A stretch of DNA of 64,000 bases from Candidatus Shapirobacteria bacterium (GTDB lineage Bacteria; Patescibacteriota; Microgenomatia; UBA12405): NCBI GenBank assembly GCA_041661765.1, contig JBAZTV010000002.1, positions 139,130 through 203,129 on the forward strand. Direction: 5' to 3'. The position numbers and the translations under genes were made by a program. Below the pieces are notes generated by a model. That model searched no databases and was not told where the DNA came from. It saw only the letters and a program-made list of their open reading frames with translations. This document shows, piece after piece, positions 11,401 through 64,000 of this stretch. The first letter of the stretch is position 1. Each line of letters opens with the position of its first letter.

Positions 11401-14400
11401 TTACTTGTGTCTGTGACAGTATGTCCTGCTAAATCGGTTCCTATAACCTGAATTGTATAAATTCCATCGGCTACAATTTGGTTTGAATTGTTTTTACCAT
11501 CCCAAGAGATGTTTAGAGAATTTGTAATACTAGTAGAACCAAGATCTCTTACCTTAACTCCATGATCATCTAATATATTAATATCAGTATTCACTTCTTC
11601 AGAATAAGTGATATTAATATTTGTACCGGATACAGTATAAAAAGAAAGGGTGGGTGTAATGGTATCAATAATAGTTAAATTATTCTCTATAAAATTTATT
11701 ACGTAATTTGTTCCTGCATTAAGAGAACCTTGGGTAATTAAATAAGCACCTACTTCTTCACCTATTACGCGAGTGAGCGAACCAGATAATGTATCACCAA
11801 TAACCAAAGGTGAATTTGTGTAAGTTAGCGTAGAATCAGAGGTGCCTCTTTCTTTAGTCTGAACGTCAGCAGTGACAGTGATTGGCTTGGCATTTATGGT
11901 GAAGGTGCCAGGTTCAAAAAAAATAAAATAGTTAGTACTAGCGGCATTTGAGGCGGTGATAATGTAATTATTAACATTTTCACCTGTTGTACGGGTTAAA
12001 TTAACTAAGGTATCGAGAGATGTAGCGTCATCATCATTTATAAAACCGCTGTAAGAAGCGGTGAGAATTGGGTCAGTGTCACCATAAGTTTTATTACTAT
12101 TTTGAGCACTTATAATTAAATTTTTCTTATTTATGATAAACGATTGAGAAATATCTGGTGCGGCATTGTAGTTATCATCACCTGTTTGATGTGCAGTGAT
12201 TGTACAGCTGCCAGCTTTATTAATATGAATCATGTTATTTGATACATTACAGCCACCAAAAGCAGTGAAAGACACTAATAATCTGGAAGAGGCTGTGGCA
12301 ATAGTACTCACATTAAAATCAAAATCACCATAAGTTTTATTTTCTAAAGTGTTGAAAAATATATTTTGATCAAGTTTGTTTGTTGTGATATTTACACCAA
12401 CGCTTGCTACTGATTCATTAGTTGTTTCAGTTGCTTTGATTCTAGTGAAAAATGTATATTGGTGGTTTAGATTTAATTCTGTAAAAATTTCACTATCTTG
12501 CCAATTTACGCCATCTTCACTGAATTGATTTAAAACATTTGCAGTCAAAGTAACACTTGTAGTTGTTTTACTTACTAATATTGGTGCTGGTGGTGCCACT
12601 GGCCCATCCGCTTTAGTAATAACTTCGGTTGCAGTACTGGTAATAGAACCTGTCCCTACACCAACCTCTGCTGTTGCGGTTACTGTAATTATTGTTCCAA
12701 TATCAGCTAATCCTACTGTATAAGTGGATGCTGTTGCTCCATCTATATTTATGTCGTTACGTTTCCATTGATATGTTGGTGTCCCTGAGTTGGTTAAGGT
12801 TGGATTTACCATTAATGTGGTACCGAATTTAGTATCTCCTGTGATAACTATTGACCCGCTCATATTTTCAATCATATTAATACTGGTGGTTGTAGCATTA
12901 GAGCTTAGATACCAGTTATTTTGATTATCAAAATTACCACTTTCGGCTCCGACCAGTTTTGCGGAAACATTTATTGACTTACCAGCTAGCTCTGTTTTTG
13001 GAGTTAACGTGAAACGACATTTATAGGTTCCATTGGAATAACTTACTAATGATTGTCTATTGCCATTGATATTACTAAAATTGCTTAACCAAAAAGTAGT
13101 TTGATTATCGGCTAAGGTTAGAGTACCTAAATTAGTTTCACTGTTATCATTATTAATTTTTGTACCAGTAATTACGTAATCTTTTAAATTAATGTCATCA
13201 GGAAAATCAAGAGTTACTTGAGTGTCGACTTTATATTTTGTATCGAGACCAGTTAGATTACCAAAAGCTACATTACCGTCAATACTTGTTTGTTGGCCAG
13301 TGACTGTATTATATGATGATTCTTGAAAATTAATTGTTGGATTGATAATTTTAATACTAATACTTGATTCGTTTGAGGAGGTAAACCAATCTGTAGAATT
13401 GTTAAATTTATTGTCATCTTCAGCGACAACCACTTGATTTGTAATGTTTAGAGTCTTACCAGTAAGTGTAGTTAGATTAATTTTGAATCTGTAATTAATA
13501 TTTTCATTAGAATGATTTACCAAAGATGGTCTGATTTGTTGCATTAAATCATTTATTAACCATAAACTAGTTTGATTTTGGCCTAGAGTAATATTTCCTA
13601 TTGGTGTTTCAATATTGTCATTGACTATATAGCCGTCGATTTGAAGTCCAGCCAGATTAGTGCCAGCATTTAGGTCGATTTTTAAATCACTTTTATATTT
13701 TGAGTCTAAACCAGTGTAATCGCTGAAATTAACAGTATTAGTAAATATTGCCTGAGAATTGGATGAAATAGTTGGTTCTAGACTAGTAATAGTTGAAGTT
13801 ATGCCAATAATATTGACAGAGGAAGTGGCGGTATTAGAAACCATATACCAGTCGGCTGGATTATTAAAATTACCTTCTTCGGCCCCTACAGCTTGGGTGG
13901 ATAAACTGATTATTTTATTAGATAAGCTACTTGGTGGAACAAAAGTGAATTTGCAGGAATAATTTTTATTGGCATAATTTTGTAATGATGGTCTGGCTAC
14001 TTTAGTAAAATCGGATAACCAAACAACTGTTTGATTATCAGTTAAAGTGACATCTCCGATAGAAATTTCTTGTTGTTGACTGTTAAGACAAGTGACATCT
14101 ACATGAAGGTCTTTTAAATTGATACCTTGTGGAGGAATAAGGGTAACTTTTGTATCGATTTTGTATTTTGAATCAAGGTTGCTAAAATCGCCGTTTTCAA
14201 TAGTTGATTCGATAGTAGTAATTTGATTAGGGGCGGTAATATAGTTTGTCTTATCTAAAGATATGGTAAATCCAGCAATATTAACAAGACTATTTATAGT
14301 GTTTGAAGATGTAAACCAATTAGTAGAATTATCAAAATTAGTACTTTCGGCTGAAATAATTTTGGCCGAGACACCAATTGTTTTTCCAACTAAATCACTT

Positions 14401-15992
14401 TTTGGAGTTAAAGTGAAACGACATTTATAGGTTCCATTGGAATAACTTACTAATGATTGTCTATTGCCATTGATATTACTAAAATCGCTTAACCAAAAAG
14501 TAGTTTGATTATCGGCTAAGGTTAGAGTACCTAAATTAGTTTCACTGTTATCATTATTAATTTTTGTACCAGTAATTACGTAATCTTTTAAATTAATGTC
14601 ATCAGGAAAATCAAGAGTTACTTGAGTGTCGACTAAATATTTACTGTCAAGACCAGTTAAATTACCAAAAGTTCCTGTAGTAGTAATGGATCCAGGTGAA
14701 CCGGCGGCAAATGAATAATTGGCTTTATCATTAGTGAAGCCAATATTGGTGTCGATACCATTAATATTTAACTCAGTACCTGGGCTGAGTAGATACCAAT
14801 CATTTGGATTAGTGGTAAATTTATCACTTTCTGCCCCGACTAATTGAGAAGAAATATTCAGACTCTTAGCTGACATACCATCAGGTAATTTAAATTTAAT
14901 AGTGTAAGTTAAAGTTCCATAATTTCGGCCAACAAACATACTGTAATTCATTGATTGTCGACCAAAACCAAACAAATCACTAAATTGACTAATCCAAAAA
15001 CTACTTTGATCGGCAGGTAAAGTATAAGAGCCCATACTTTGGTAATTAGTTGTGCCTTTAACTTCACCAGTCATAGGAATACTGCCAGTGACACCTGTAG
15101 GTCGATTAAAAGTAATTAAAGTATCAAGTTTATATTTAGGATCAATATTAGAAAAATTTCCCAAATTTAAACTGATATAAAGAGTAACATCGGAACCGCT
15201 GGTGGTAGTTATACTAGAAATGCTAGTTGATCTGCCGGGATTTGTATTGCTTTGAGCAAAAATCACTGAAGAATTGGGCATTATTTGATCACTAGTAGGG
15301 ATAAAGATAGTAAAATGATTTAAATTTTTAATAGAAATCGAGGTATCTGTTTTTACAATGGCATTTTCTACTTTTTGAGCAGAATCAATTTTTGAAATTT
15401 CTTCGGCAAATTTTACACTAATATTTTCACCTCTTGATGATACTGGAATTGGCAAAGAAAGATTGTAAGTAAAAGAACCATCTGCCATATCCGAGGTAAT
15501 ACTATAAACTTTTTCTGACAAGGACTCTGTTTGCTCTATTTGTTCTTTAGTAAGAGTTATTTCTTCAATTTTTATATTACCTGCAGGACTAGGAAGCTTG
15601 GTAAAAGTTAATTTTATTTCATTATTTTGAGGAGCAATATATTCTTTATTTAATTCTACTTTTTCAAATGTCCATGGTGAAGGAATATTGGTTGGGGTTG
15701 GGGTTGATTGAATCGTTGGTGTTACCTCGATAGTTGAGGTTATAGTTGGAATTGCAGTCGGTTCAATAGTTGGTATAACTGTTGGTTCTAATAGTTCTGA
15801 TGTTGATGTTGATGTTGGAATTGCAGTTGGTTCAGTAATTTGAACAATTTCAGTGGGAGTGGGGATAGTTTCTTCGGCATAAACTGGTTGAGCAATAAAT
15901 AAAAATGGGGTGAAAGAATTCAATAAAAGAGAGATATTTGCGAGAATGGCAATAAATTTTTTTGCGGATTTTGTTTTAATCATAAAGGTCAA
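8454..15992 (-). CDS. giant secreted surface/adhesin-like repeat protein (2512 aa)
   Basis: The signal peptide is MTFMIKTKSAKKFIAILANISLLLNSFTPFLFIAQPVYA. A Thr/Pro-rich N-terminal linker follows. There are at least 7 copies of a module of about 155 aa with GLDSKYxVDTxVTL, NLKDY, DNQTxFWLSDF and GAExxNFxNxxNWY motifs. Two MBG-like segments (KTYGDFDF, KTYGDTDP) and Ig-like segments are present. A poly-Ser/Asn tract is followed by an FN3-like domain near the C-terminus. No LPXTG motif. Confidence 0.8.
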   Translation of the reverse strand: MTFMIKTKSAKKFIAILANISLLLNSFTPFLFIAQPVYAEETIPTPTEIVQITEPTAIPTSTSTSELLEPTVIPTIEPTAIPTITSTIEVTPTIQSTPTPTNIPSPWTFEKVELNKEYIAPQNNEIKLTFTKLPSPAGNIKIEEITLTKEQIEQTESLSEKVYSITSDMADGSFTYNLSLPIPVSSRGENISVKFAEEISKIDSAQKVENAIVKTDTSISIKNLNHFTIFIPTSDQIMPNSSVIFAQSNTNPGRSTSISSITTTSGSDVTLYISLNLGNFSNIDPKYKLDTLITFNRPTGVTGSIPMTGEVKGTTNYQSMGSYTLPADQSSFWISQFSDLFGFGRQSMNYSMFVGRNYGTLTYTIKFKLPDGMSAKSLNISSQLVGAESDKFTTNPNDWYLLSPGTELNINGIDTNIGFTNDKANYSFAAGSPGSITTTGTFGNLTGLDSKYLVDTQVTLDFPDDINLKDYVITGTKINNDNSETNLGTLTLADNQTTFWLSDFSNINGNRQSLVSYSNGTYKCRFTLTPKSDLVGKTIGVSAKIISAESTNFDNSTNWFTSSNTINSLVNIAGFTISLDKTNYITAPNQITTIESTIENGDFSNLDSKYKIDTKVTLIPPQGINLKDLHVDVTCLNSQQQEISIGDVTLTDNQTVVWLSDFTKVARPSLQNYANKNYSCKFTFVPPSSLSNKIISLSTQAVGAEEGNFNNPADWYMVSNTATSSVNIIGITSTITSLEPTISSNSQAIFTNTVNFSDYTGLDSKYKSDLKIDLNAGTNLAGLQIDGYIVNDNIETPIGNITLGQNQTSLWLINDLMQQIRPSLVNHSNENINYRFKINLTTLTGKTLNITNQVVVAEDDNKFNNSTDWFTSSNESSISIKIINPTINFQESSYNTVTGQQTSIDGNVAFGNLTGLDTKYKVDTQVTLDFPDDINLKDYVITGTKINNDNSETNLGTLTLADNQTTFWLSNFSNINGNRQSLVSYSNGTYKCRFTLTPKTELAGKSINVSAKLVGAESGNFDNQNNWYLSSNATTTSINMIENMSGSIVITGDTKFGTTLMVNPTLTNSGTPTYQWKRNDINIDGATASTYTVGLADIGTIITVTATAEVGVGTGSITSTATEVITKADGPVAPPAPILVSKTTTSVTLTANVLNQFSEDGVNWQDSEIFTELNLNHQYTFFTRIKATETTNESVASVGVNITTNKLDQNIFFNTLENKTYGDFDFNVSTIATASSRLLVSFTAFGGCNVSNNMIHINKAGSCTITAHQTGDDNYNAAPDISQSFIINKKNLIISAQNSNKTYGDTDPILTASYSGFINDDDATSLDTLVNLTRTTGENVNNYIITASNAASTNYFIFFEPGTFTINAKPITVTADVQTKERGTSDSTLTYTNSPLVIGDTLSGSLTRVIGEEVGAYLITQGSLNAGTNYVINFIENNLTIIDTITPTLSFYTVSGTNINITYSEEVNTDINILDDHGVKVRDLGSTSITNSLNISWDGKNNSNQIVADGIYTIQVIGTDLAGHTVTDTSKTITVDTTSPIITLIGDSVININIGSTYIDAGAIAFDNYDNDLKVIITGTVDTKNVGSYVIYYDAVDSSNNTAIQVIRTINVVDTKPQISFGEANYVTAVNQPIIISSSINFGDSTGFSSEYKVDVKISFQSDVNLKGLVINGFVNMGNGATTTFIPIVLNDNQITLWLKDFILQDRPSLVSRSNKNYTAYFYISAPANLAGKSIQVSSVAVVAKDEDFNNPNNWYNSSNIANVNLKIIGSTISFVNNQTNYSITPNSLQTIDSIIGFSDFSGLDSKYLVDTKVDFSPPVGINLKDYIITAIKINNDDTQTVLGTLTLGDNQTSFWLSDFTNIDRRSLVNYSNGTYKVRFIFTPKTNLAGKSMNISAQLIGAEDGNFDNPNNWYVSSNIITANINIIDNIAPIITINDYNHNPTNQDITVTATTNEGSLNTNSHIFTQNGTFDFIATDSVGNVTTETVTISNIDKSPPSIPSASIISGTYATSQTITLSSNGSSIIKYSNSVKLDNCNSGTIYTAPFLIDHSQIISVIACDLLGNMSSNIFSYNITQSIENTKPLVSDQGQLTMSNEIKLDNKSSLDLTSGINTVSGNKVTVDGFEVNLNNYNLGDLSAGVNLTEVKNVGDKSIKVEKAVTLQSSNNESIITLTNNSLNNIKVEIPNSTTILGPLNWNGKIEPPKSISNSGNAPSGFSVNNTAIEVGSPSVILLFDKPISIILNNVTGDVAYRPAGSNNWTRISQKCGGSYDNPNNPIFPGECYISNGINTKIFTYHFTTFAGLTKNSASSSSNNSSSSSSSNNSSSSSSSNNSSSSCSSSVCNDSKPESAPVLISARVTGFNEVTLTWKPAKGSVTYYLVAYGNKPGQMIYGNPNVGGRDTLSYTVKGLSIKNRYYFKVRAGNGCTPGDFSNEVSVVVTKGGSYVNQAVGFYPNVLGASTVNKRIKKPLNSNLIIPESTPKGVTPTEIQKQSDNSNKLFDYIKKIFSKFFF
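8989..9068. repeat. 27-bp tandem repeat, about 2.9 units
   Basis: gatgaattatttgaagaagatgaacta is repeated head-to-tail. On the minus strand it encodes the SSSNNSSSS low-complexity tract of the giant protein. Confidence 0.8.
13021..13270. repeat. intragenic direct repeat, copy 1 (about 250 bp, near-identical to 14408-14680)
   Basis: Runs of more than 200 bp are identical with only a few mismatches. It encodes VDTQVTLDFPDDINLKDYVITGTKINNDNSETNLGTLTLADNQTTFWLS... Confidence 0.8.
14408..14680. repeat. intragenic direct repeat, copy 2
   Basis: The same sequence as 13021-13270, 1387 bp downstream. This corresponds to a protein super-repeat of about 462 aa. Confidence 0.8.
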
Positions 15993-20748: not shown

Positions 20749-21996
20749 ATGAAAATACTATTAATAAGTCATATTTTTCCTCCCGCCATCGATGGCGGTT
20801 CAAAAGTCATTTATAAACTTGGCCAATATTTTGAATCCCAAAATCATCAAACTCTTTATTTAAGTTCCAATTGTTCCAGCACTGACGACTTCATCAAAAA
20901 AAGTCCTGCCCTGTCAAGGGAAGGATTTAGGAAGGGTTTTATAAAACTGCCCACATATCACCATCTTCGCCGACCCTTAAAATTTCTAAATTTATTTTTA
21001 AAACAAGATTTATTAAAAGTTTTTCAAAAAGGCCCGATTTTTAAAATTTTTCCGTTTCTAAAAGCCACTTATCAAATTTTAAAATTCAAACCCGATTTAA
21101 TTATCGCCGGTCCACTTCCAACAACTATTATTCTATATGCTGTTTTTTTCAAAAAAATAACTAATTCCAAACTTCTAATCAATGCTTCCTTCCACCCCAC
21201 CGACCAAGACTTTCAACAAAAACCACTAATTAATACCTTAAAAAAGGCAGATTTTTTGTGGACTCTTACTCAATCAGAAACTGATTATTTTACAAAAAAT
21301 TTTAATATCGACCCAAAAAAAATAATTCTCGCCGGCAACGGTGTCGATTATAATTTTTTAAAAAAATCAAAAATTCCCCGTCTTGTCTCGGCCAAAAGCC
21401 GATCCGCCTCTGGCGGAAAGGGAGGCTTAGGAAGCTTTAACATCTTATTCATCGGTTCTCTTGCCGCCCATAAACGCGTCGACATTTTAATTAAGTCTTT
21501 TTCAGATATTTTAGCGTCCCGCCCTGTCAAGGGAGGGATTGAGGGAGGGTTTAAACTTACTATCGCCGGCCAAAAAACCCTCTTCTATTCTCAAATCGAA
21601 AAACTAATCAATTCCCTTGACCCAAAATTAAAATCTAAAATCAATTTTATTTTTAATTTTAATCAAAAAGATTTGGCTAAAATAATTGATAATTGCTCTG
21701 TTTTAGTTTTACCCTCAGTTCAGGAAAGTTTTGGTTTAGTTATTGTCGAAGCCTGGGCTCGGCAAAAACCAGTAATTTGTGCCGATATTCCAGCATTAAA
21801 AGAATTAGTCCAAAATTCAAATGGGGGATTATTGTTTAAAACCAATGATCAATCAGATTTAACAAAAAAAATTCAAGAAATCATAGACAATCCAAAAAAA
21901 TCAGAACAAATGGGGAAAAATGGTTACAATTATGTTAAAAACAATTATACTTGGAATAATGTAGGAAATAAAATATGCCAAAAAATATTATGCTGA
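20749..21996 (+). CDS. glycosyltransferase family 4 carrying three in-frame mini-element insertions
   Basis: The N-terminus is MKILLISHIFPPAIDGGSKV and the C-terminal region is VLPSVQESFGLVIVEAWA...G. GC-rich inserts encode PALSREGFRKGFIKL, SAKSRSASGGKGGLGSF and ASRPVKGGIEGGFKL. Confidence 0.75.
   Translation: MKILLISHIFPPAIDGGSKVIYKLGQYFESQNHQTLYLSSNCSSTDDFIKKSPALSREGFRKGFIKLPTYHHLRRPLKFLNLFLKQDLLKVFQKGPIFKIFPFLKATYQILKFKPDLIIAGPLPTTIILYAVFFKKITNSKLLINASFHPTDQDFQQKPLINTLKKADFLWTLTQSETDYFTKNFNIDPKKIILAGNGVDYNFLKKSKIPRLVSAKSRSASGGKGGLGSFNILFIGSLAAHKRVDILIKSFSDILASRPVKGGIEGGFKLTIAGQKTLFYSQIEKLINSLDPKLKSKINFIFNFNQKDLAKIIDNCSVLVLPSVQESFGLVIVEAWARQKPVICADIPALKELVQNSNGGLLFKTNDQSDLTKKIQEIIDNPKKSEQMGKNGYNYVKNNYTWNNVGNKICQKILC
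20905..20941. repeat. palindromic mini-element copy B (intragenic, in-frame)
   Basis: CCTGCCCT-GTCA-AGGGAAGG hairpin with one mismatch, plus the tail ATTTAGGAAGGGTTTTA. Confidence 0.6.
21405..21441. repeat. related mini-element copy E (sub-family with CCGCC-TCT-GGCGG hairpin)
   Basis: CCGCCTCTGGCGG, then AAAGGGAGGCTTAGGAAGCTTTAA. The tail is homologous to the copy B tail. It encodes SASGGKGGLGSF. Confidence 0.45.
21518..21555. repeat. palindromic mini-element copy C (intragenic, in-frame)
   Basis: CCCGCCCT-GTCA-AGGGAGGG, plus the tail ATTGAGGGAGGGTTTAAA. Confidence 0.6.
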
Positions 21997-22433
21997 TAAT
22001 TACTCCTGTTTTAATAATAATTGCCGGAATTTTAATTTGGCGATTATTTTTTTATTTACCACCAGCTAACTCTATTAAGATCAAAATTGCCAACATTAAT
22101 TACAATATTGAATTAGCCACAACCATCGCCCAAAAAACAAAAGGGTTATCTGAACGAAATATTCTCTGTAAAAATTGCGGTATGCTTTTTACTTTTAGTT
22201 TTGAAACTAATTTGCCTTTTTGGATGAAAAACACTCTAATTCCTCTCGATATGATTTGGCTCGATAAAAATGGAAAAGTAGTTGATATTCAAACCGCCGT
22301 TGAAATTAATTCAAATAAAATTTACCAAAACCAAATTCCCGCCCAATATGTCCTTGAACTAAATGCTAATGATTCACAAAAAATAGGCCTAAAAATAGGT
22401 GACATTATTGATCTTTCAAAGATAAATGACTAA
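21975..22433 (+). CDS. DUF192-domain protein
   Basis: GLSERNILCKNCGMLFTFSFETNLPFWMKNTLIPLDMIWLDKNGKVV matches the DUF192/COG1430 core. There is an N-terminal TM anchor. Confidence 0.55.
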   Translation: MPKNIMLIITPVLIIIAGILIWRLFFYLPPANSIKIKIANINYNIELATTIAQKTKGLSERNILCKNCGMLFTFSFETNLPFWMKNTLIPLDMIWLDKNGKVVDIQTAVEINSNKIYQNQIPAQYVLELNANDSQKIGLKIGDIIDLSKIND

Positions 22434-23412
22434 TTTTTCTATTATTATTCCAAATTACAATGGTGCTTCATTTTTAACTAACTGTCTTAATTCTTTAAAA
22501 CAAGCAATAGATAATTGTCCTAATTCTGAATTCGAAATAATTCTAATCGATAACAACTCAAAAGATGATAGCCTTAAAATTTTTGAAATTATAATTCCTA
22601 AAAATTTTAATTATCGAATATTACTAAACTCAAAAAATTATGGATTCGCCAGTGCTGTTAATCAAGGAATTGAAAAAGCCAAATATGAATATGTAGTCTT
22701 ATTAAATAATGACCTCACCATGGAACCAAATTGGTTTCAGTTAATTTCTAAAACAATTAAAAAAAATAAAAATCCAAAAATCGCCACATTTTTCGGTACT
22801 GTTCTAAATAAAGAAGGCACAAAATTTGAATCCCAAGGTCTAAAATTTTTTTATTCCGGCAAATGTCAAAACATTTCCAACAGGGACAAATTCACCCCCT
22901 CCTTGTCAAAGGAGGGGGTTGGGGGTGGATTAGTTTGGGGTGCTTCCGCTGCTTTTATTGTCTACAATAAAAAAATATTAAAACAAATTGGTCTTTTTGA
23001 TTCTGATTTTTTTGCTTATTTGGAAGATGTCGATTTATCCCTCCGTCTTCATAATTTAAATTATCAAACTTTTTATATTCCCAAAGCTATTTCTTATCAC
23101 TTCGGTGGTGGCACCAGTAAAACTATGAAGAATATTCGCAGTCGATTATCCTATCGAAATTGGTTCTTCATAATTATAAAGAACTATTCTTCAAAAGAAT
23201 TTTTTACCAATTTTTCAAATATTTTAATTGAAAGATGTCACAACTTATCATATTTCTTTAAAGAAACCATTTCTGTTTATAAATGGAAATCTATTATAAT
23301 TTTTCCGTTCGATTTTATAAAAACATCTCTTGAAATTTTCATTTTACTCCCCAAAATATTAAAAAAACGAAAAACAATTCAAAAATTGATAAAATTAAAC
23401 AACTTAATATGA
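22426..23412 (+). CDS. glycosyltransferase family 2
   Basis: MTNFSIIIPNYNGASFLTNCLNSL...ILIDNNSKDDS...NNDL is a GT-A fold DxD region. The gene also carries an in-frame mini-element (PSLSKEGVGGGLVW). Confidence 0.75.
   Translation: MTNFSIIIPNYNGASFLTNCLNSLKQAIDNCPNSEFEIILIDNNSKDDSLKIFEIIIPKNFNYRILLNSKNYGFASAVNQGIEKAKYEYVVLLNNDLTMEPNWFQLISKTIKKNKNPKIATFFGTVLNKEGTKFESQGLKFFYSGKCQNISNRDKFTPSLSKEGVGGGLVWGASAAFIVYNKKILKQIGLFDSDFFAYLEDVDLSLRLHNLNYQTFYIPKAISYHFGGGTSKTMKNIRSRLSYRNWFFIIIKNYSSKEFFTNFSNILIERCHNLSYFFKETISVYKWKSIIIFPFDFIKTSLEIFILLPKILKKRKTIQKLIKLNNLI
22895..22936. repeat. palindromic mini-element copy D (intragenic, in-frame)
   Basis: CCCCCTCCTT-GTCA-AAGGAGGGGG is a perfect 10-bp stem. 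The tail is TTGGGGGTGGATTAGTTT. Compare copy A, whose tail is TTAAGGGGTGGATTTA. Confidence 0.65.
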
Positions 23413-61206: not shown

Positions 61207-62049
61207 ATGACTATGAAACAAGTTTCTCAAATCCCAACCAATCAATTAGAACCAAATCCACTGCAACCACGAGGTATTATTAATCAAGAATCAATTTCTG
61301 AATTAATTGAGTCTATTAAAGAGCATGGAATATTAGAACCGCTCATTATTGCTAAAACTCCAGCCGGATATCAAATAATCGCTGGAGAAAGGCGCTGGCG
61401 TTCTGCTAGAGCCCTCAAATTAGAATACGTTCCAGCTATTATCAAAGAAACCACTCCTCAACAAATGTTAGAAATGGCCATTGTTGAAAATGTCCAACGA
61501 AAAGATCTAAATCCAATGGAACGTGCCAAAGCATTTTTACGACTTAGAGAAGAATTCACTTTTGATAATAATAAAATCGCCAAACGAGTTAGTAAAAGTG
61601 TTCCTTATGTCATTAATTGTCTAAAATTATTAACTCTTCCAGATGCCATCAAAGATGGTCTATTATCTGGTCTCATCAGCGAAGGTCATGCTCGTGCCTT
61701 ATCTGGAATAGGGGACACTCGATTAATGATCGAAGCCTACAAAATTATTTTAAAAGAAAAAGCCTCTGTTCGCCGTGCTGAAGATATTGCCAGAAGAATG
61801 AGAAAAAAAATTGAAGAAGGTGATGTTCCGATTACTAAAGAAAATTTACCTCAATTTTTAAAATCAAAAATCGACAATATTAGTCAAGATCTTCAATCAG
61901 TTTTTAATAAAAAAACCACCTCTGTAAAAATTATTCAAACTAACGTCTTAACAAAAGTAACATTCCAATTTAAAGGCCCAATTGATCAAAGATTTGACGA
62001 ATTAAAAAACCTTTATAAACAAGTTTGTAAGAAAGACCTGCAAAATTAA
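61207..62049 (+). CDS. parB: ParB/Spo0J chromosome-partitioning protein
   Basis: LQPRGIINQESISELIESIKEHGILEPLII...IIAGERRWRSA is the ParB box. Confidence 0.85.
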   Translation: MTMKQVSQIPTNQLEPNPLQPRGIINQESISELIESIKEHGILEPLIIAKTPAGYQIIAGERRWRSARALKLEYVPAIIKETTPQQMLEMAIVENVQRKDLNPMERAKAFLRLREEFTFDNNKIAKRVSKSVPYVINCLKLLTLPDAIKDGLLSGLISEGHARALSGIGDTRLMIEAYKIILKEKASVRRAEDIARRMRKKIEEGDVPITKENLPQFLKSKIDNISQDLQSVFNKKTTSVKIIQTNVLTKVTFQFKGPIDQRFDELKNLYKQVCKKDLQN

Positions 62050-62645
62050 AACCTAACTGCTGGAACCAAACCTATCGAAGATACTGGCCAATATTTAAAA
62101 AATGCCTTTCCTACAATTAATTCTTTTTTAATTGGACCAAATTCACGACCATCTCGAGAATGCTGTCTATTGTCACCAAAACATAAATATTCATCACTTG
62201 GAACCATTAATTCAACTCCTTCCTGGGCATATTGACCTTCCATTGTTATGACATCACTAGCCAAAAATGTCTGATTCAATAATTCTCCATTCAAATAAAC
62301 CTTTCCATTTTTAACCATTACCTTATCACCTGGAAGTCCGATAATTCTTTTAATATATTCACACTCTTCAGCTGCACAAGGTTCAGTTGATGGAGCTTTA
62401 AAAATAACTACATCACCTCGCTGCGGATCCCCCAAATAGTAAGATATTTTCTCTGTCAATAAAAATTCCTTATCCACAAAATTTGGTAACATCGAGCTCC
62501 CTTTCACTTCATTTGGTTGGGCCACAAAAAGATACAAGAGTACAAAAACTGCTAAAGCTAAAACTATTGATTGAATAAAATCCAAAATAAAACCACCAAT
62601 TGACCCTCTCTGATTTTTATAAATTTCACTTTTCATAATTATCAA
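62046..62645 (-). CDS. lepB: signal peptidase I (S26)
   Basis: GSSMLPNF carries the catalytic Ser. YIKRIIGLPGD carries the catalytic Lys. N-terminal TM helix. Confidence 0.85.
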   Translation of the reverse strand: MIIMKSEIYKNQRGSIGGFILDFIQSIVLALAVFVLLYLFVAQPNEVKGSSMLPNFVDKEFLLTEKISYYLGDPQRGDVVIFKAPSTEPCAAEECEYIKRIIGLPGDKVMVKNGKVYLNGELLNQTFLASDVITMEGQYAQEGVELMVPSDEYLCFGDNRQHSRDGREFGPIKKELIVGKAFFKYWPVSSIGLVPAVRF

Positions 62646-62662
62646 TTATAGTGGAATTTTGG

Positions 62663-62677
62663 TTGACTTGGTATAAT
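62663..62677 (+). promoter_or_regulatory. extended -10 promoter upstream of tRNA-Val
   Basis: TTGACT is directly abutting TGGTATAAT (TGn-TATAAT). Confidence 0.4.
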
Positions 62678-62689
62678 CTAATTCACCAA

Positions 62690-62743
62690 GGTTGTTTAGC
62701 CTTTGCCCGTCCGTAGCTTTAGCGAAGGAGGGTCAGTTGGTTA
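62690..62743 (+). other. partial duplication of the tRNA-Val 5' half, interrupted by a 32-nt GC-rich insert
   Basis: GGTTGTTTAGC (matching tRNA nt 1-11), then CTTTGCCCGTCCGTAGCTTTAGCGAAGGAGGG, then TCAGTTGGTTA (matching tRNA nt 12-22). The true tRNA starts 13 nt downstream. Confidence 0.4.
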
Positions 62744-62755
62744 ATAAATTTATTA

Positions 62756-62829
62756 GGTTGTTTAGCTCAGTTGGTTAGAGCGTTCCGTTCACATCGGAGA
62801 GGTCACAGGTTCGAATCCTGTAACAACCA
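62756..62829 (+). tRNA. tRNA-Val (anticodon CAC)
   Basis: GGTTGTT acceptor, GCTCAGTTGGTTAGAGC D-arm, TTCCG-TTCACAT-CGGAG anticodon arm, ACAGG-TTCGAAT-CCTGT T-arm, AACAACC-A. CCA is not encoded. Confidence 0.85.
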
Positions 62830-63888
62830 CTTCTTAAAATAATCCTTATCGTAGGCCTTAATTAAAACCTCAGTTCCATAATTAAACGCTGCAAAATTAT
62901 TTGCACAGACTTCAAAATAATTTTTCTGTGTTATTTTATTTTGATTTAATTCCAAAATTTCATTCATCTTCTGATAACTTATTGCTGCATTTTCACTAAT
63001 CTTAAAACCTTTTTTATTTTTATTTAATTTAATTAGATTATCAATCAAATCCTGATAACTATTAGTAATTTTAAAACCTTTACTTGCTTCATTTTTTGAA
63101 CAATTATTTATAAACGACAACCAAATAGTCGCATTGTCGATAATTTTTCCACTAATAATTGTTTCATTTTTTCCTTTTTTAAAATCAAAAATATTCCTTA
63201 TCAAAACTCTAGGTTGATTTTTATCCAAAGATTTTAAAGCTGCCTTTAATTCTTTATTGTTTTTATTTAAAACTAATAAAGAATTTATATCTTCTTTTAT
63301 TATCGATTTCAAAAATGAAACATTATCTTTATTGTTAATAATTTGGCCATCAATTGGATTAATTTTAATATTACTAATTTCTCCATTAGTAATATTTTTT
63401 TCCCAATAATACCAATTAGTATTATCTGTATTACCCGCCACCACATGAATTAAACCATCACCATTTCCAACTAAATTAACATTACAAGATTTATAATTTT
63501 TATTTTTTATCACCACAAAACCATCATTATCATTAACAGGGGATTCATTATCGCATTTAACCGAATAATCAACTGGTGAACCAACAAAAACTACTAAACT
63601 GTTACTCAAATCTTGAGATTCGCCGACCACACCCACTTGGCTTAATCCAATTTCCATCATTACTTGATTAATAGTTTTATTAACAATTTCTCCATGTTTA
63701 CTATTGATCTCTATTGCGTCACTTTTTCCATAATTTGCACTTCTTACCAAAACAGTGCCATCTCCACTAGTGGAATACAAAAATTTATTAATTCTTCCGT
63801 CTGGCCAAATCCCCAAAACATTATCAAAAACATTATTATTTTTAAGTTCAATAGAATCAATCGTTTTAAAATAACTACCAGCAAACAA
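62803..63888 (-). CDS. hypothetical protein; may continue upstream toward the window edge
   Basis: 361 aa, Asn/Lys-rich, with a GDGTVLVRSANYG segment. The 3' end overlaps tRNA-Val in antisense by 27 bp. Confidence 0.35.
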   Translation of the reverse strand: MFAGSYFKTIDSIELKNNNVFDNVLGIWPDGRINKFLYSTSGDGTVLVRSANYGKSDAIEINSKHGEIVNKTINQVMMEIGLSQVGVVGESQDLSNSLVVFVGSPVDYSVKCDNESPVNDNDGFVVIKNKNYKSCNVNLVGNGDGLIHVVAGNTDNTNWYYWEKNITNGEISNIKINPIDGQIINNKDNVSFLKSIIKEDINSLLVLNKNNKELKAALKSLDKNQPRVLIRNIFDFKKGKNETIISGKIIDNATIWLSFINNCSKNEASKGFKITNSYQDLIDNLIKLNKNKKGFKISENAAISYQKMNEILELNQNKITQKNYFEVCANNFAAFNYGTEVLIKAYDKDYFKKWLLQDSNL

Positions 63889-64000
63889 TTTTAAATTTAT
63901 CCCATAATTTGCACCATTAATATTTTTATTTTTTAAAAAAGTATTATTCGTTTCTAATTTATCATTACTTAAAATTTTTCCATTTTTATTAACATAATTA

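What the first reader, a model, noticed from the sequence alone, without database searches (positions are those of the whole stretch)
62663..62829. tRNA-Val preceded by a promoter-driven partial copy of its own 5' half split by a 32-nt GC-rich insert
Downstream of a TTGACT-TGGTATAAT promoter the sequence reads GGTTGTTTAGC, then a 32-nt insert CTTTGCCCGTCCGTAGCTTTAGCGAAGGAGGG, then TCAGTTGGTTA. The two flanking pieces reproduce nt 1-22 of the real tRNA, which starts 13 nt later. This could be a scar of an element that integrated into and then re-duplicated the tRNA 5' end. It could also be a decoy or leader structure affecting RNase P processing. The insert contains an AAGGAGGG stretch reminiscent of the mini-element arms.
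Basis: seen in the sequence. Interest (0 to 1): 0.5.

Follow-up and report, generated by a model that had tools for sequence, protein, structure and literature searches.

The report
Hairpin-split tRNA-Val fragment: selfish-insertion scar
A 66-base block in front of a valine tRNA gene of an uncultured Shapirobacteria (CPR) bacterium is a dispensable, come-and-go partial copy of the tRNA's own start, split by a GC-rich hairpin; in related genomes the same kind of block comes with a tiny GIY-YIG nuclease gene, which points to a little-known family of selfish inserts in tRNA genes.

Summary
Downstream of a TGGTATAAT extended -10 lie tRNA nt 1-11, a 32-nt GC-rich hairpin, tRNA nt 12-22, a 12-nt AT spacer and then an intact tRNA-Val(CAC).

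The block is an exact 66-nt indel. A relative with 96% identical LepB and an identical promoter region lacks it. An independent assembly has it unchanged.

The block is patchy across Shapirobacteria. It occurs in one or two tandem copies, 55-66 nt long. The hairpin is 88-97% conserved where neighbouring non-coding DNA is 51-62% identical.

Other lineages show the same layout with unrelated hairpins. At this same locus, other relatives carry a roughly 86-aa GIY-YIG ORF between a hairpin-split tRNA fragment and the intact tRNA. In a protein-first test, all eight inspected contexts of homologues of that nuclease abutted hairpin-split tRNA copies of Val, Pro or Ala.

My best reading is an ORF-less miniature, or relic, of a tRNA-gene-invading cassette. 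It would be co-transcribed in the leader and lost precisely through its 11-nt repeats. A functional leader role is not excluded, because the hairpin is conserved and the folding test gave mixed results. I found no published description.

The parts
62669..62677 (+). Extended -10 promoter-like element TGGTATAAT. It is the native tRNA-Val promoter, now 12 nt upstream of the partial copy instead of the tRNA.
   Evidence: Sequence. The TGnTATAAT element and the 12-nt distance to tRNA +1 are conserved in insert-free relatives L001-L004, L007 and L186. The adjacent TTGACT (62663-62668) is not conserved and sits too close to be a -35.
62690..62700 (+). Partial copy of tRNA-Val nt 1-11 (acceptor 5' strand, U8, A9 and the start of the D-stem).
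   Evidence: Exact 11-mer repeat of 62756-62766; two copies in the window against 0.01 expected.
62701..62732 (+). 32-nt GC-rich hairpin insert ('hpW'): stems CCC/GGG and UCC/GGA, a G.A/U-A/A.G internal loop, and GC/GC closing a UUUA loop.
   Evidence: Unique in the window. Fold. Homologous copies in L067, L182-185, L017/L082, L158 and L023 are 88-97% identical. 94% of cells pair, with one compensatory U-A to A-U change, which is not significant. No Rfam family matches.
62733..62743 (+). Partial copy of tRNA-Val nt 12-22 (rest of the D-stem 5' strand plus the D-loop).
   Evidence: Exact 11-mer repeat of 62767-62777; two copies in the window against 0.02 expected.
62744..62755 (+). AT-rich 12-nt spacer between the partial copy and the intact tRNA. 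Its length varies among relatives (roughly 2-14 nt; most end in ATTA).
   Evidence: Alignment A1.
62690..62755 (+). The 66-nt indel unit as a whole (partial copy + hairpin + spacer). Because of the 11-nt direct repeat, its boundaries can be shifted by 0-11 nt.
   Evidence: The LepB-to-tRNA distance is 119 nt here and 53 nt in L001-L004, L007 and L186, whose flanks are the same. L017/L082 carry two tandem units.
62756..62830 (+). Intact tRNA-Val(CAC), the functional gene.
   Evidence: ARAGORN; Rfam RF00005 at 71 bits, E = 6.6e-15. Orthologous and divergent from LepB in about 30 Shapirobacteria genomes.

Best explanation
The 66-nt block is a lineage-variable insertion in the leader of tRNA-Val(CAC). 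It is a partial duplicate of the tRNA's first 22 nt, made non-tRNA-like by a conserved GC-rich hairpin inserted in the 5' strand of the D-stem.

I read it as the ORF-less miniature, or relic, of a class of selfish cassettes that invade tRNA genes in CPR bacteria. A full-length cassette carries a replacement copy of one part of the tRNA plus a GIY-YIG nuclease ORF of about 85-100 aa (catalytic domain only). It leaves the displaced resident part beside the gene, always split by GC-rich hairpins.

Here the native promoter still drives the displaced or partial copy. The intact tRNA is therefore made with a leader of roughly 70 nt that RNase P must remove. The block is not required for tRNA function. 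It can be expanded or deleted precisely by slippage or recombination between the 11-nt direct repeats.

Shown:
- the indel polymorphism
- the hairpin family and its copy-number variation
- the occupation of the same locus by GIY-YIG cassettes in relatives
- the general link between GIY-YIG ORFs and hairpin-split tRNA copies

Inferred:
- descent of this ORF-less unit from such a cassette, or its mobilisation in trans
- a homing-type gene-conversion mechanism
- co-transcription with the tRNA and removal by RNase P
- the role of the hairpin, which might neutralise the extra tRNA piece, give immunity, or serve as a recognition site
For: 1. Exact 66-nt presence/absence at an otherwise identical site. 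L186 (LepB 96% identical) has the identical promoter region and no block. L181 (LepB 100%) has the identical block.

2. Patchy distribution on the LepB tree. The block is present in window/L181, L182-185, L067, L017/L082 and L023, and absent in the interleaved L186, L001 and L002. Units are 55-66 nt long and come as one or two tandem copies.

3. The hairpin is 88-97% identical in lineages where flanking non-coding DNA is 51-62% and LepB DNA 69-70% identical.

4. The same architecture occurs with unrelated hairpins, and the partial copy matches its own tRNA, in L027, L066/L075/L128, L080, L069 and L103.

5. At the same LepB/tRNA-Val locus, L005 and L166-169 show this order: promoter, hairpin-split 5' tRNA fragment, GIY-YIG ORF (PF01541, E = 1e-16), intact tRNA. 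The ORF's stop codon lies inside tRNA nt 8-10.

6. Protein-first test. I fetched contexts for six of the 26 homologues of that ORF, giving 15 places. All 8 that I inspected abut tRNA-derived sequence. In seven of them the D-loop of that sequence is split between nt 17 and 18 by GC hairpins; L174 instead has the hairpin after nt 17 joined directly to the tRNA's 3' end. The tRNAs are Val, Pro and Ala. ARAGORN finds an intact tRNA within 100 nt in 13 of the 15.

7. L103 combines a window-like single-hairpin 5' fragment directly upstream of an intact tRNA-Met with a GIY-YIG ORF downstream.

8. Displaced 5' and 3' fragments bracket intact tRNAs in L023, L149 and L163.
Against: - No GIY-YIG or other nuclease ORF is present in the 64-kb window or in any locus that carries this particular hairpin.
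- The window hairpin is not homologous to the double hairpins of the GIY-YIG cassettes. It sits at nt 10/11, not at 17/18.
- The 12-nt spacer is too short to show descent from an ORF.
- No 3' displaced fragment is present here.
- The strong conservation of the hairpin, one compensatory change and one G-U change are equally what a functional RNA element would show.
- Homing or cleavage by these nucleases has never been tested.
- The distribution could reflect repeated loss of an old feature rather than mobility.
Confidence: 0.55

Rival explanations
1. The block is a functional leader element. The hairpin is an RNA structure selected to act on the precursor. It might sequester the extra 5' strand so that the tRNA folds and RNase P cuts correctly, or it might bind a factor or tune processing.
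For: - The hairpin is as conserved as the tRNA itself (88-97%) across lineages whose neighbouring non-coding DNA is 51-62% identical.
- 94% of cells pair. There is one compensatory U-A to A-U change and one C-G to U-G change.
- In the window, the predicted probability of the genuine acceptor stem is 0.87 with the hairpin and 0.00 without it. None of 100 shuffled inserts did as well.
- L067, L158 and L080 show partial effects.
Against: - The block is absent from the closest relative (LepB 96%, identical promoter) and from most Shapirobacteria, so the tRNA works without it.
- Any insulating role only repairs a problem that the duplication itself created.
- The folding effect is absent in L023, L027 and L075.
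- Covariation is not significant: 154 of 500 shuffles were as good.
- No Rfam family matches and no terminator is predicted.
Confidence: 0.18
2. Two unrelated local events produced the block. First, a slippage-type tandem duplication of the tRNA's first 22 nt plus spacer. Second, a separate insertion of one of the GC-rich palindromic mini-elements that pepper this genome. Nuclease cassettes play no part.
For: - GC-rich hairpin segments are lineage-variable in-frame insertions in protein genes of the same window.
- One of them, TCCGCCTCTGGCGGA at 21403-21417, is identical to a hairpin found in split tRNA copies elsewhere.
- Tandem copy-number change of the unit is seen in L017/L082.
Against: - The same hairpin occurs only in this tRNA context, once per locus, and never elsewhere in the window.
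- Independent lineages with unrelated hairpins have the insert at the same place, nt 5-11 of a partial copy. Chance insertion into neutral DNA does not predict this.
- The duplication starts exactly at tRNA +1.
Confidence: 0.2
3. The block is a classical attL/attR-type scar of an integrase-mediated integrative element or prophage that has since been almost entirely deleted.
For: Partial tRNA copies next to intact tRNA genes are the usual footprint of integrating elements (PMC9897764).
Against: - The whole block is 66 nt.
- No integrase is present in any occupied relative; occupied alleles carry a GIY-YIG ORF instead.
- The 5' end of the tRNA is duplicated, not the 3' end.
- The copy is split by a conserved hairpin.
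- The same tiny unit recurs in several lineages.
Confidence: 0.04

Closest known systems
tRNA gene fragments left by integrating genetic elements (attL/attR partial tRNA copies; van der Gulik et al. 2023, PMC9897764)
   Same: A partial copy of a tRNA lies beside an intact tRNA gene. Presence or absence varies between related genomes. The copy is not a functional tRNA.
   Different: Here the 5' end is duplicated rather than the 3' end. The 'element' is only 12-55 nt long, and no integrase is present. The fragment is split by a conserved GC-rich hairpin and sits between the promoter and the gene.
Free-standing GIY-YIG homing endonucleases in tRNA gene clusters (phage T4 SegB; PMC2330249)
   Same: Small GIY-YIG ORFs sit directly beside tRNA genes, in relatives at this locus and at other CPR tRNA genes. 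They are polymorphic among relatives, as expected for homing by gene conversion.
   Different: The CPR proteins are only about 82-104 aa, with the catalytic domain and no recognisable DNA-binding domain. The cassettes duplicate part of the target tRNA and carry hairpin-split copies. The window itself has no ORF. No cleavage has been tested.
Mobile endonuclease ORFs that bring a replacement copy of a gene end and displace the resident end (for example the GIY-YIG ORF at atp6 in Allomyces mitochondria; from my own knowledge, not checked here)
   Same: The logic is the same. The insert keeps the gene functional by supplying a duplicate part, and the displaced original part remains as a pseudo-fragment next to it.
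   Different: The target here is a tRNA gene in a bacterial chromosome. The fragments carry hairpin insertions. The window version has lost, or never had, the ORF.
Palindromic or hairpin-forming selfish elements inserted in genes (Rickettsia palindromic elements, from my own knowledge; sponge mitochondrial repetitive hairpin-forming elements, PMC2800124, title and abstract only)
   Same: Short GC-rich hairpin-forming inserts occur in an AT-rich genome and are tolerated inside genes. The same window has such segments in frame inside glycosyltransferase genes.
   Different: The hairpin of this finding is not a dispersed repeat. There is one copy in 64 kb, and it is always in this tRNA context.
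Group I introns in tRNA genes of Patescibacteria (PMC13011429)
   Same: Same phylum, same type of target gene, and a selfish origin.
   Different: Those are ribozyme introns in the anticodon loop of a single continuous gene. Here the downstream tRNA is complete and uninterrupted, the insert is 32 nt, and no intron model matches.

Membership tests
tRNA (Rfam RF00005) | Cloverleaf that scores above the gathering threshold | tested here: met
   62756-62829 scores 71 bits against a threshold of 29. ARAGORN calls Val(CAC). The upstream copy at 62690-62743 gives no tRNA hit in either tool, so it is not a second tRNA gene.
Integrase-type integration scar (attL/attR) | A direct repeat of part of the tRNA flanks an element body that encodes, or once encoded, a tyrosine or serine integrase | tested here: not met
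   The repeats are present, but only 12 nt, or 55 nt counting the hairpin, lie between them. No occupied relative carries an integrase.
Integrase-type integration scar (attL/attR) | The duplicated segment is usually the 3' part of the tRNA | tested here: not met
   The duplicated segment is nt 1-22, the 5' part.
Free-standing GIY-YIG homing-endonuclease cassette | A GIY-YIG ORF within the inserted DNA | tested here: not met
   tblastn with 27 GIY-YIG queries finds nothing in the window or in any locus with this hairpin. The ORF is present at the same locus in L005 and L166-169.
Free-standing GIY-YIG homing-endonuclease cassette | Presence/absence polymorphism at one precise site among close relatives | tested here: met
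   Exact 66-nt indel between the window/L181 and L186, L001 and L002. GIY-YIG-occupied L005 contrasts with its empty sister L003.
Free-standing GIY-YIG homing-endonuclease cassette | The nuclease cleaves the empty allele and the insert is copied in by repair | not testable with these tools
   This needs purified protein tested on empty-allele DNA (L186- or L003-type).
Dispersed palindromic mini-element (RPE/REP/MITE-like) | Many homologous copies at unrelated sites in one genome | tested here: not met
   One copy in 64 kb at up to 3 mismatches. In about 200 fetched loci the hairpin occurs only upstream of tRNA-Val(CAC). Whole genomes could not be searched.
Group I intron in a tRNA gene | A ribozyme of at least about 200 nt interrupts one continuous tRNA, usually in the anticodon loop | tested here: not met
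   The insert is 32 nt and lies in a partial copy. The downstream tRNA is uninterrupted. There is no intron hit at E <= 10.
Archaeal-type split or BHB-intron tRNA | The tRNA halves or an intron must be joined or spliced to give a functional tRNA | tested here: not met
   The genome context is bacterial (L21, L27, ParB, LepB, FtsW). A complete tRNA follows, so no splicing is needed.
Conserved cis-regulatory leader RNA | Present in orthologous leaders of relatives, with covariation that supports the structure | tested here: inconclusive
   The block is absent from most relatives, including the closest. Where present it is highly conserved, with only one compensatory pair (154 of 500 shuffles as good).

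The most novel reading that the evidence does not exclude
CPR bacteria harbour a previously undescribed class of minimal homing cassettes aimed at tRNA genes. The nucleases are GIY-YIG proteins of about 90 aa with only a catalytic domain. They may recognise the cloverleaf or cruciform-prone tRNA DNA, or the GC hairpins, rather than a long sequence. On this reading the 55-66-nt hairpin-split tRNA fragments such as this one are their non-autonomous derivatives. They would be mobilised in trans and spread horizontally between Shapirobacteria lineages. The hairpin would serve as the recognition or immunity determinant and, at the RNA level, as an insulator that keeps the adjacent tRNA foldable.
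Probability: 0.25. Interest if true: 0.75.

Novelty: new variant of a known kind. Interest (0 to 1): 0.55.

Why it matters
tRNA genes are classic landing sites for large integrating elements. What turns up here is a much smaller and apparently undescribed layer of parasitism in the reduced genomes of CPR bacteria.

- Inserts of 55-400 nt duplicate part of a tRNA gene.
- They mark the spare piece with GC-rich hairpins.
- They often carry a nuclease ORF of about 90 aa.

If these cassettes really home into tRNA genes, three things follow.
- They explain stray tRNA fragments and odd tRNA leaders in CPR genome annotations.
- They offer compact nucleases with unusual target recognition.
- They give a concrete case in which an RNA hairpin may have been selected to neutralise a harmful gene fragment.

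For annotation, the practical message is that the upstream piece is not a second or split tRNA gene.

Tried and rejected
**Searches that gave nothing**
- An Rfam search of 61500-64000 at E <= 10 found only the tRNA. Nothing matched the leader.
- The terminator scan found none.
- A viral-contig scan for the window hairpin gave 0 hits.
- A viral-contig scan for the double-hairpin motif gave 24 hits. All were chance matches in GC-rich coding DNA with no tRNA or GIY-YIG nearby, so I discarded them.
- Seven literature searches found no description of hairpin-split tRNA fragments or of GIY-YIG/tRNA cassettes in CPR.

**Loci and tests that turned out uninformative**
- L032 and L039 have 1-1.5 kb between LepB and the tRNA. 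These turned out to be ordinary inserted genes and are irrelevant.
- The covariation test on 7 hairpin variants had too little variation to decide.
- The 'insulator' folding test was clear in the window but failed in L023, L027 and L075, so I do not use it as the main explanation.

**Ideas considered and dropped**
- A 13-codon mini-ORF starts at the TTG after the AGGAGG in the hairpin's 3' arm. The frame and length are not conserved in L067 or L182, so I rejected it.
- The 12-nt spacer might be a remnant of the GIY-YIG ORF's 3' end, since it resembles the L005 and L023 spacers. It is too short and too AT-rich to count as evidence.
- The 32-nt insert contains a further TTTAGC copy of tRNA nt 6-11. 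This is not conserved in L158 or L082.
- The recurrent junction motif CCTGCCCGCC at the ends of pseudo-tRNA fragments in other phyla remains unexplained.

**Limits of the survey**
- The pattern required TCAGTTGGT within 5-35 nt of the tRNA. The 56% share of Val among hits therefore has no proper background.

Full report
**1. Observation**

- TGGTATAAT at 62669-62677, with TTGACT directly abutting it at 62663-62668
- 12 nt of spacer
- GGTTGTTTAGC at 62690-62700
- a 32-nt GC-rich insert at 62701-62732
- TCAGTTGGTTA at 62733-62743
- a 12-nt AT-rich spacer at 62744-62755
- a canonical tRNA-Val(CAC) at 62756-62830 (ARAGORN; Rfam tRNA 71 bits)

The two 11-mers reproduce tRNA nt 1-11 and 12-22. Each occurs exactly twice in the window, against 0.01-0.02 expected. 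The insert is unique in the window. The upstream piece is not called as a tRNA by either tool.

TTGACT cannot be a -35 because the spacing is 3 nt. The element that relatives conserve is the extended -10, TGnTATAAT.

**2. Context**

The window comes from a Candidatus Shapirobacteria (CPR/Microgenomates) genome. The divergent upstream neighbour is signal peptidase I (LepB, 62049-62636, minus strand). It is 100% identical to a protein from a Shapirobacteria MAG. The pairing of LepB with a divergent tRNA-Val(CAC) is conserved in about 30 species-level genomes fetched with LepB.

**3. The block is an indel**

In the closest species representatives (L001-L004, L007) the promoter is followed after 12 nt by the tRNA itself. 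The distance from LepB to the tRNA is 53 nt there and 119 nt here, a difference of exactly 66 nt.

A contig whose LepB is 96% identical (L186) has a base-for-base identical promoter region and no block. An independent assembly with 100% identical LepB (L181) has the identical block. That excludes an assembly artefact.

Contigs with 91% identical LepB (L182-185) carry a 55-nt version. L067 has a 61-nt version. L017/L082 have two tandem 57-nt units. L023 and L158 have more divergent versions.

On a neighbour-joining LepB tree, carriers and non-carriers interleave. At least three gains or three losses are needed in the clade with 87% or more LepB identity. A deletion between the two GGTTGTTTAGC repeats would restore the empty allele precisely. 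The two-unit allele shows that slippage on these repeats does occur.

**4. The hairpin**

The insert folds into a stem-loop with these features:
- stems CCC/GGG and UCC/GGA
- a G.A / U-A / A.G internal loop
- a GC/GC pair closing the loop

Together with the tRNA-derived flanks it forms an extended hairpin.

Across seven variants, 94% of cells pair. There is one compensatory change (U-A to A-U in L158) and one C-G to U-G change (L067). This is not significant, since 154 of 500 shuffles do as well, because the sequence hardly varies.

That lack of variation is itself notable. Identity to the window is 88-97% for the hairpin and 86-99% for the tRNA. In the distant carriers it is only 51-62% for the 60 nt upstream and 69-70% for LepB DNA. 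The hairpin is therefore either constrained or recently transferred.

It matches no Rfam family at E <= 10 and is not followed by a terminator-like T run.

**5. The same architecture elsewhere**

L027 belongs to a different Shapirobacteria lineage with a different tRNA-Val sequence. It has tRNA nt 1-10, an unrelated hairpin, nt 11-23, a spacer and then the tRNA. The copy matches its own tRNA.

I ran a metagenome scan for a D-loop copy 5-35 nt upstream of a tRNA.
- Val dominated the identified tRNAs, 59 of 106. There is no proper background for this figure.
- Many hits are plain partial duplicates.
- Several repeat the hairpin-split layout: L066/L075/L128 and L080 (Val-GAC), L069 (Phe) and L103 (Met).

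**6. Link to GIY-YIG cassettes**

In L005, the sister of the empty L003, the same intergenic site holds the following, in order:
- the promoter
- tRNA nt 1-8
- a 30-nt double hairpin
- tRNA nt 9-17
- a second double hairpin
- tRNA nt 18 to about 30
- an 86-aa ORF (Pfam GIY-YIG, E = 1e-16)
- the intact tRNA

The ORF's stop codon TAG is nt 8-10 of the intact tRNA.

A protein search with this ORF returned 26 small proteins of 82-104 aa, with the GIY-YIG domain only. Those with names came from CPR. I fetched the contexts of six of them, which gave 15 places.
- The first set, L166-169, is again the LepB/tRNA-Val(CAC) locus.
- Each of the 8 arrangements I inspected has the ORF abutting tRNA-derived sequence. 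In seven of them the D-loop of that sequence is split between nt 17 and 18 by GC-rich hairpins of the types TCAGCCAAAGGCTGA and TCGGCCTCTGGCCGA. L174 instead has a single hairpin after nt 17 joined directly to the tRNA's 3' end.
- The tRNAs involved are Val-CAC, Val-GAC, Pro-UGG, Ala-GGC and Ala-UGC.
- The layouts are of two kinds: a split 5' part, then the ORF, then the intact tRNA; or the intact tRNA, then the ORF, then a split 3' part.
- ARAGORN finds an intact tRNA within 100 nt in 13 of the 15 places.

GIY-YIG homologues also lie in 7 of the 119 pattern-selected loci. In L103 a window-like single-hairpin 5' fragment lies directly upstream of the intact tRNA-Met, and the GIY-YIG ORF lies just downstream.

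L023, L149 and L163 show intact tRNAs bracketed by displaced 5' and 3' fragments of a resident tRNA, and those fragments again carry hairpins.

No GIY-YIG ORF occurs in the window or in any locus with the window-type hairpin.

**7. Interpretation**

The shown facts are these:
- The block is a dispensable, polymorphic insertion.
- It belongs to a conserved hairpin family.
- Hairpin-split partial tRNA copies are the constant companions of small GIY-YIG ORFs at CPR tRNA genes, including this very locus.

From these I infer that the block is an ORF-less miniature or relic of such a cassette. An insert into the 5' part of the gene brought a replacement copy and left the promoter-proximal resident piece behind. 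The unit is co-transcribed as a leader of about 70 nt that RNase P removes.

The role of the hairpin is open. In the window, deleting it in silico lets the extra 5' strand capture the acceptor 3' strand. The probability of the genuine acceptor stem falls from 0.87 to 0.00, and none of 100 shuffled inserts does as well as the real one. The effect is partial in L067, L158 and L080. It is absent in L023, L027 and L075. Other possibilities are interruption of the direct repeat, immunity to the nuclease, or a recognition site. None could be tested here.

**8. Rivals**

- A functional leader is supported by the conservation and by the folding result in the window. It is weakened by the block's absence from the closest relatives.
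- Independent slippage plus insertion of a mobile palindrome is supported by GC-rich, lineage-variable, in-frame segments inside glycosyltransferase genes of the same window. It does not explain why this hairpin is found only in this tRNA context, or why unrelated hairpins sit at the same place in other lineages.
- An integrase-type scar lacks any integrase and duplicates the wrong end of the tRNA.

**9. Known systems**

The closest known systems are:
- tRNA fragments left by integrating elements (PMC9897764)
- free-standing GIY-YIG homing endonucleases in tRNA clusters, such as T4 SegB (PMC2330249)
- endonuclease ORFs that bring a replacement gene end (my own knowledge)
- hairpin-forming selfish elements (PMC2800124, title and abstract only)
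- group I introns of Patescibacteria tRNA genes (PMC13011429), a paper in which my term search found no mention of GIY-YIG, duplication or hairpins

I found no description of hairpin-split tRNA duplicates or of these cassettes. The library is incomplete, so this is absence of evidence only.

**10. Verdict**

The 'RNase P decoy' half is untested. The feature itself is a small relic, but it opens onto an apparently undescribed family of minimal cassettes that invade tRNA genes in CPR bacteria.

Noticed in passing
window 20782-20800, 20903-20939, 21400-21440, 21516-21552, 22895-22931: GC-rich hairpin 'mini-elements' lie in frame inside two glycosyltransferase ORFs (20749-21996 and 22426-23412). 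They encode peptides such as SPALSREGFRKGF, RSASGGKGGLGS and SRPVKGGIEGGF. In an alignment with nine homologues these segments are lineage-variable insertions or replacements, and other homologues carry similar peptides at other positions. The 15-mer TCCGCCTCTGGCGGA at 21403-21417 is identical to one hairpin of the split tRNA copies beside GIY-YIG ORFs in L176-L178.
   Followed up: partly
window 62803-62830 (minus-strand ORF 62803..63888): The C-terminus (..KKWLLQDSNL) of the downstream lipase/LCAT-like ORF is read from the reverse complement of the tRNA-Val 3' end, a 28-nt overlap. The same ending appears in the L005 orthologue.
   Followed up: no
L149 560-1090; L163 760-1000; L023 (tRNA region, minus strand): 'tRNA within a tRNA'. 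An intact tRNA-Val is bracketed by the 5' and 3' fragments of a different resident tRNA-Val whose acceptor strands match each other. The gene has in effect been replaced by an insertion in the anticodon loop or D-arm. The displaced fragments carry GC hairpins at nt 37/38 or in the T-loop.
   Followed up: partly
L086, L165, L140, L146, L116, L161, L144, L109, L056, L153 (upstream of tRNA-Val genes): A recurrent junction motif, CCTGCCCGCC or CCTGCCTGCC, sits where the similarity of upstream pseudo-tRNA fragments to the tRNA ends, after nt 21-23 or nt 37. It appears in contigs that look like several different phyla. In L023 and L080 the same motif forms the 5' arm of a hairpin.
   Followed up: no
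L176 and L178, 1091-1785: Two tandem GIY-YIG ORFs, each followed by a hairpin-split tRNA-Ala copy. L177 and L179 have one at the same locus, so these cassettes vary in copy number.
   Followed up: no
L055, L058, L155: Long tandem arrays of about 50-nt units (about 14-nt units in L155) that begin like a tRNA 5' half (GGGCCGGTAGCTCAGTTGGTA...) but contain no complete tRNA. The origin is unknown.
   Followed up: no
window 10200-15050 and 8974-9062: Diverged repeats with a period of about 470 nt (families D1-D9) span about 5 kb. They may lie within a large repetitive protein gene, but the ORFs there were not examined. Separately there is a 27-nt tandem repeat that would encode acidic EEDELDELF units.
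   Followed up: no
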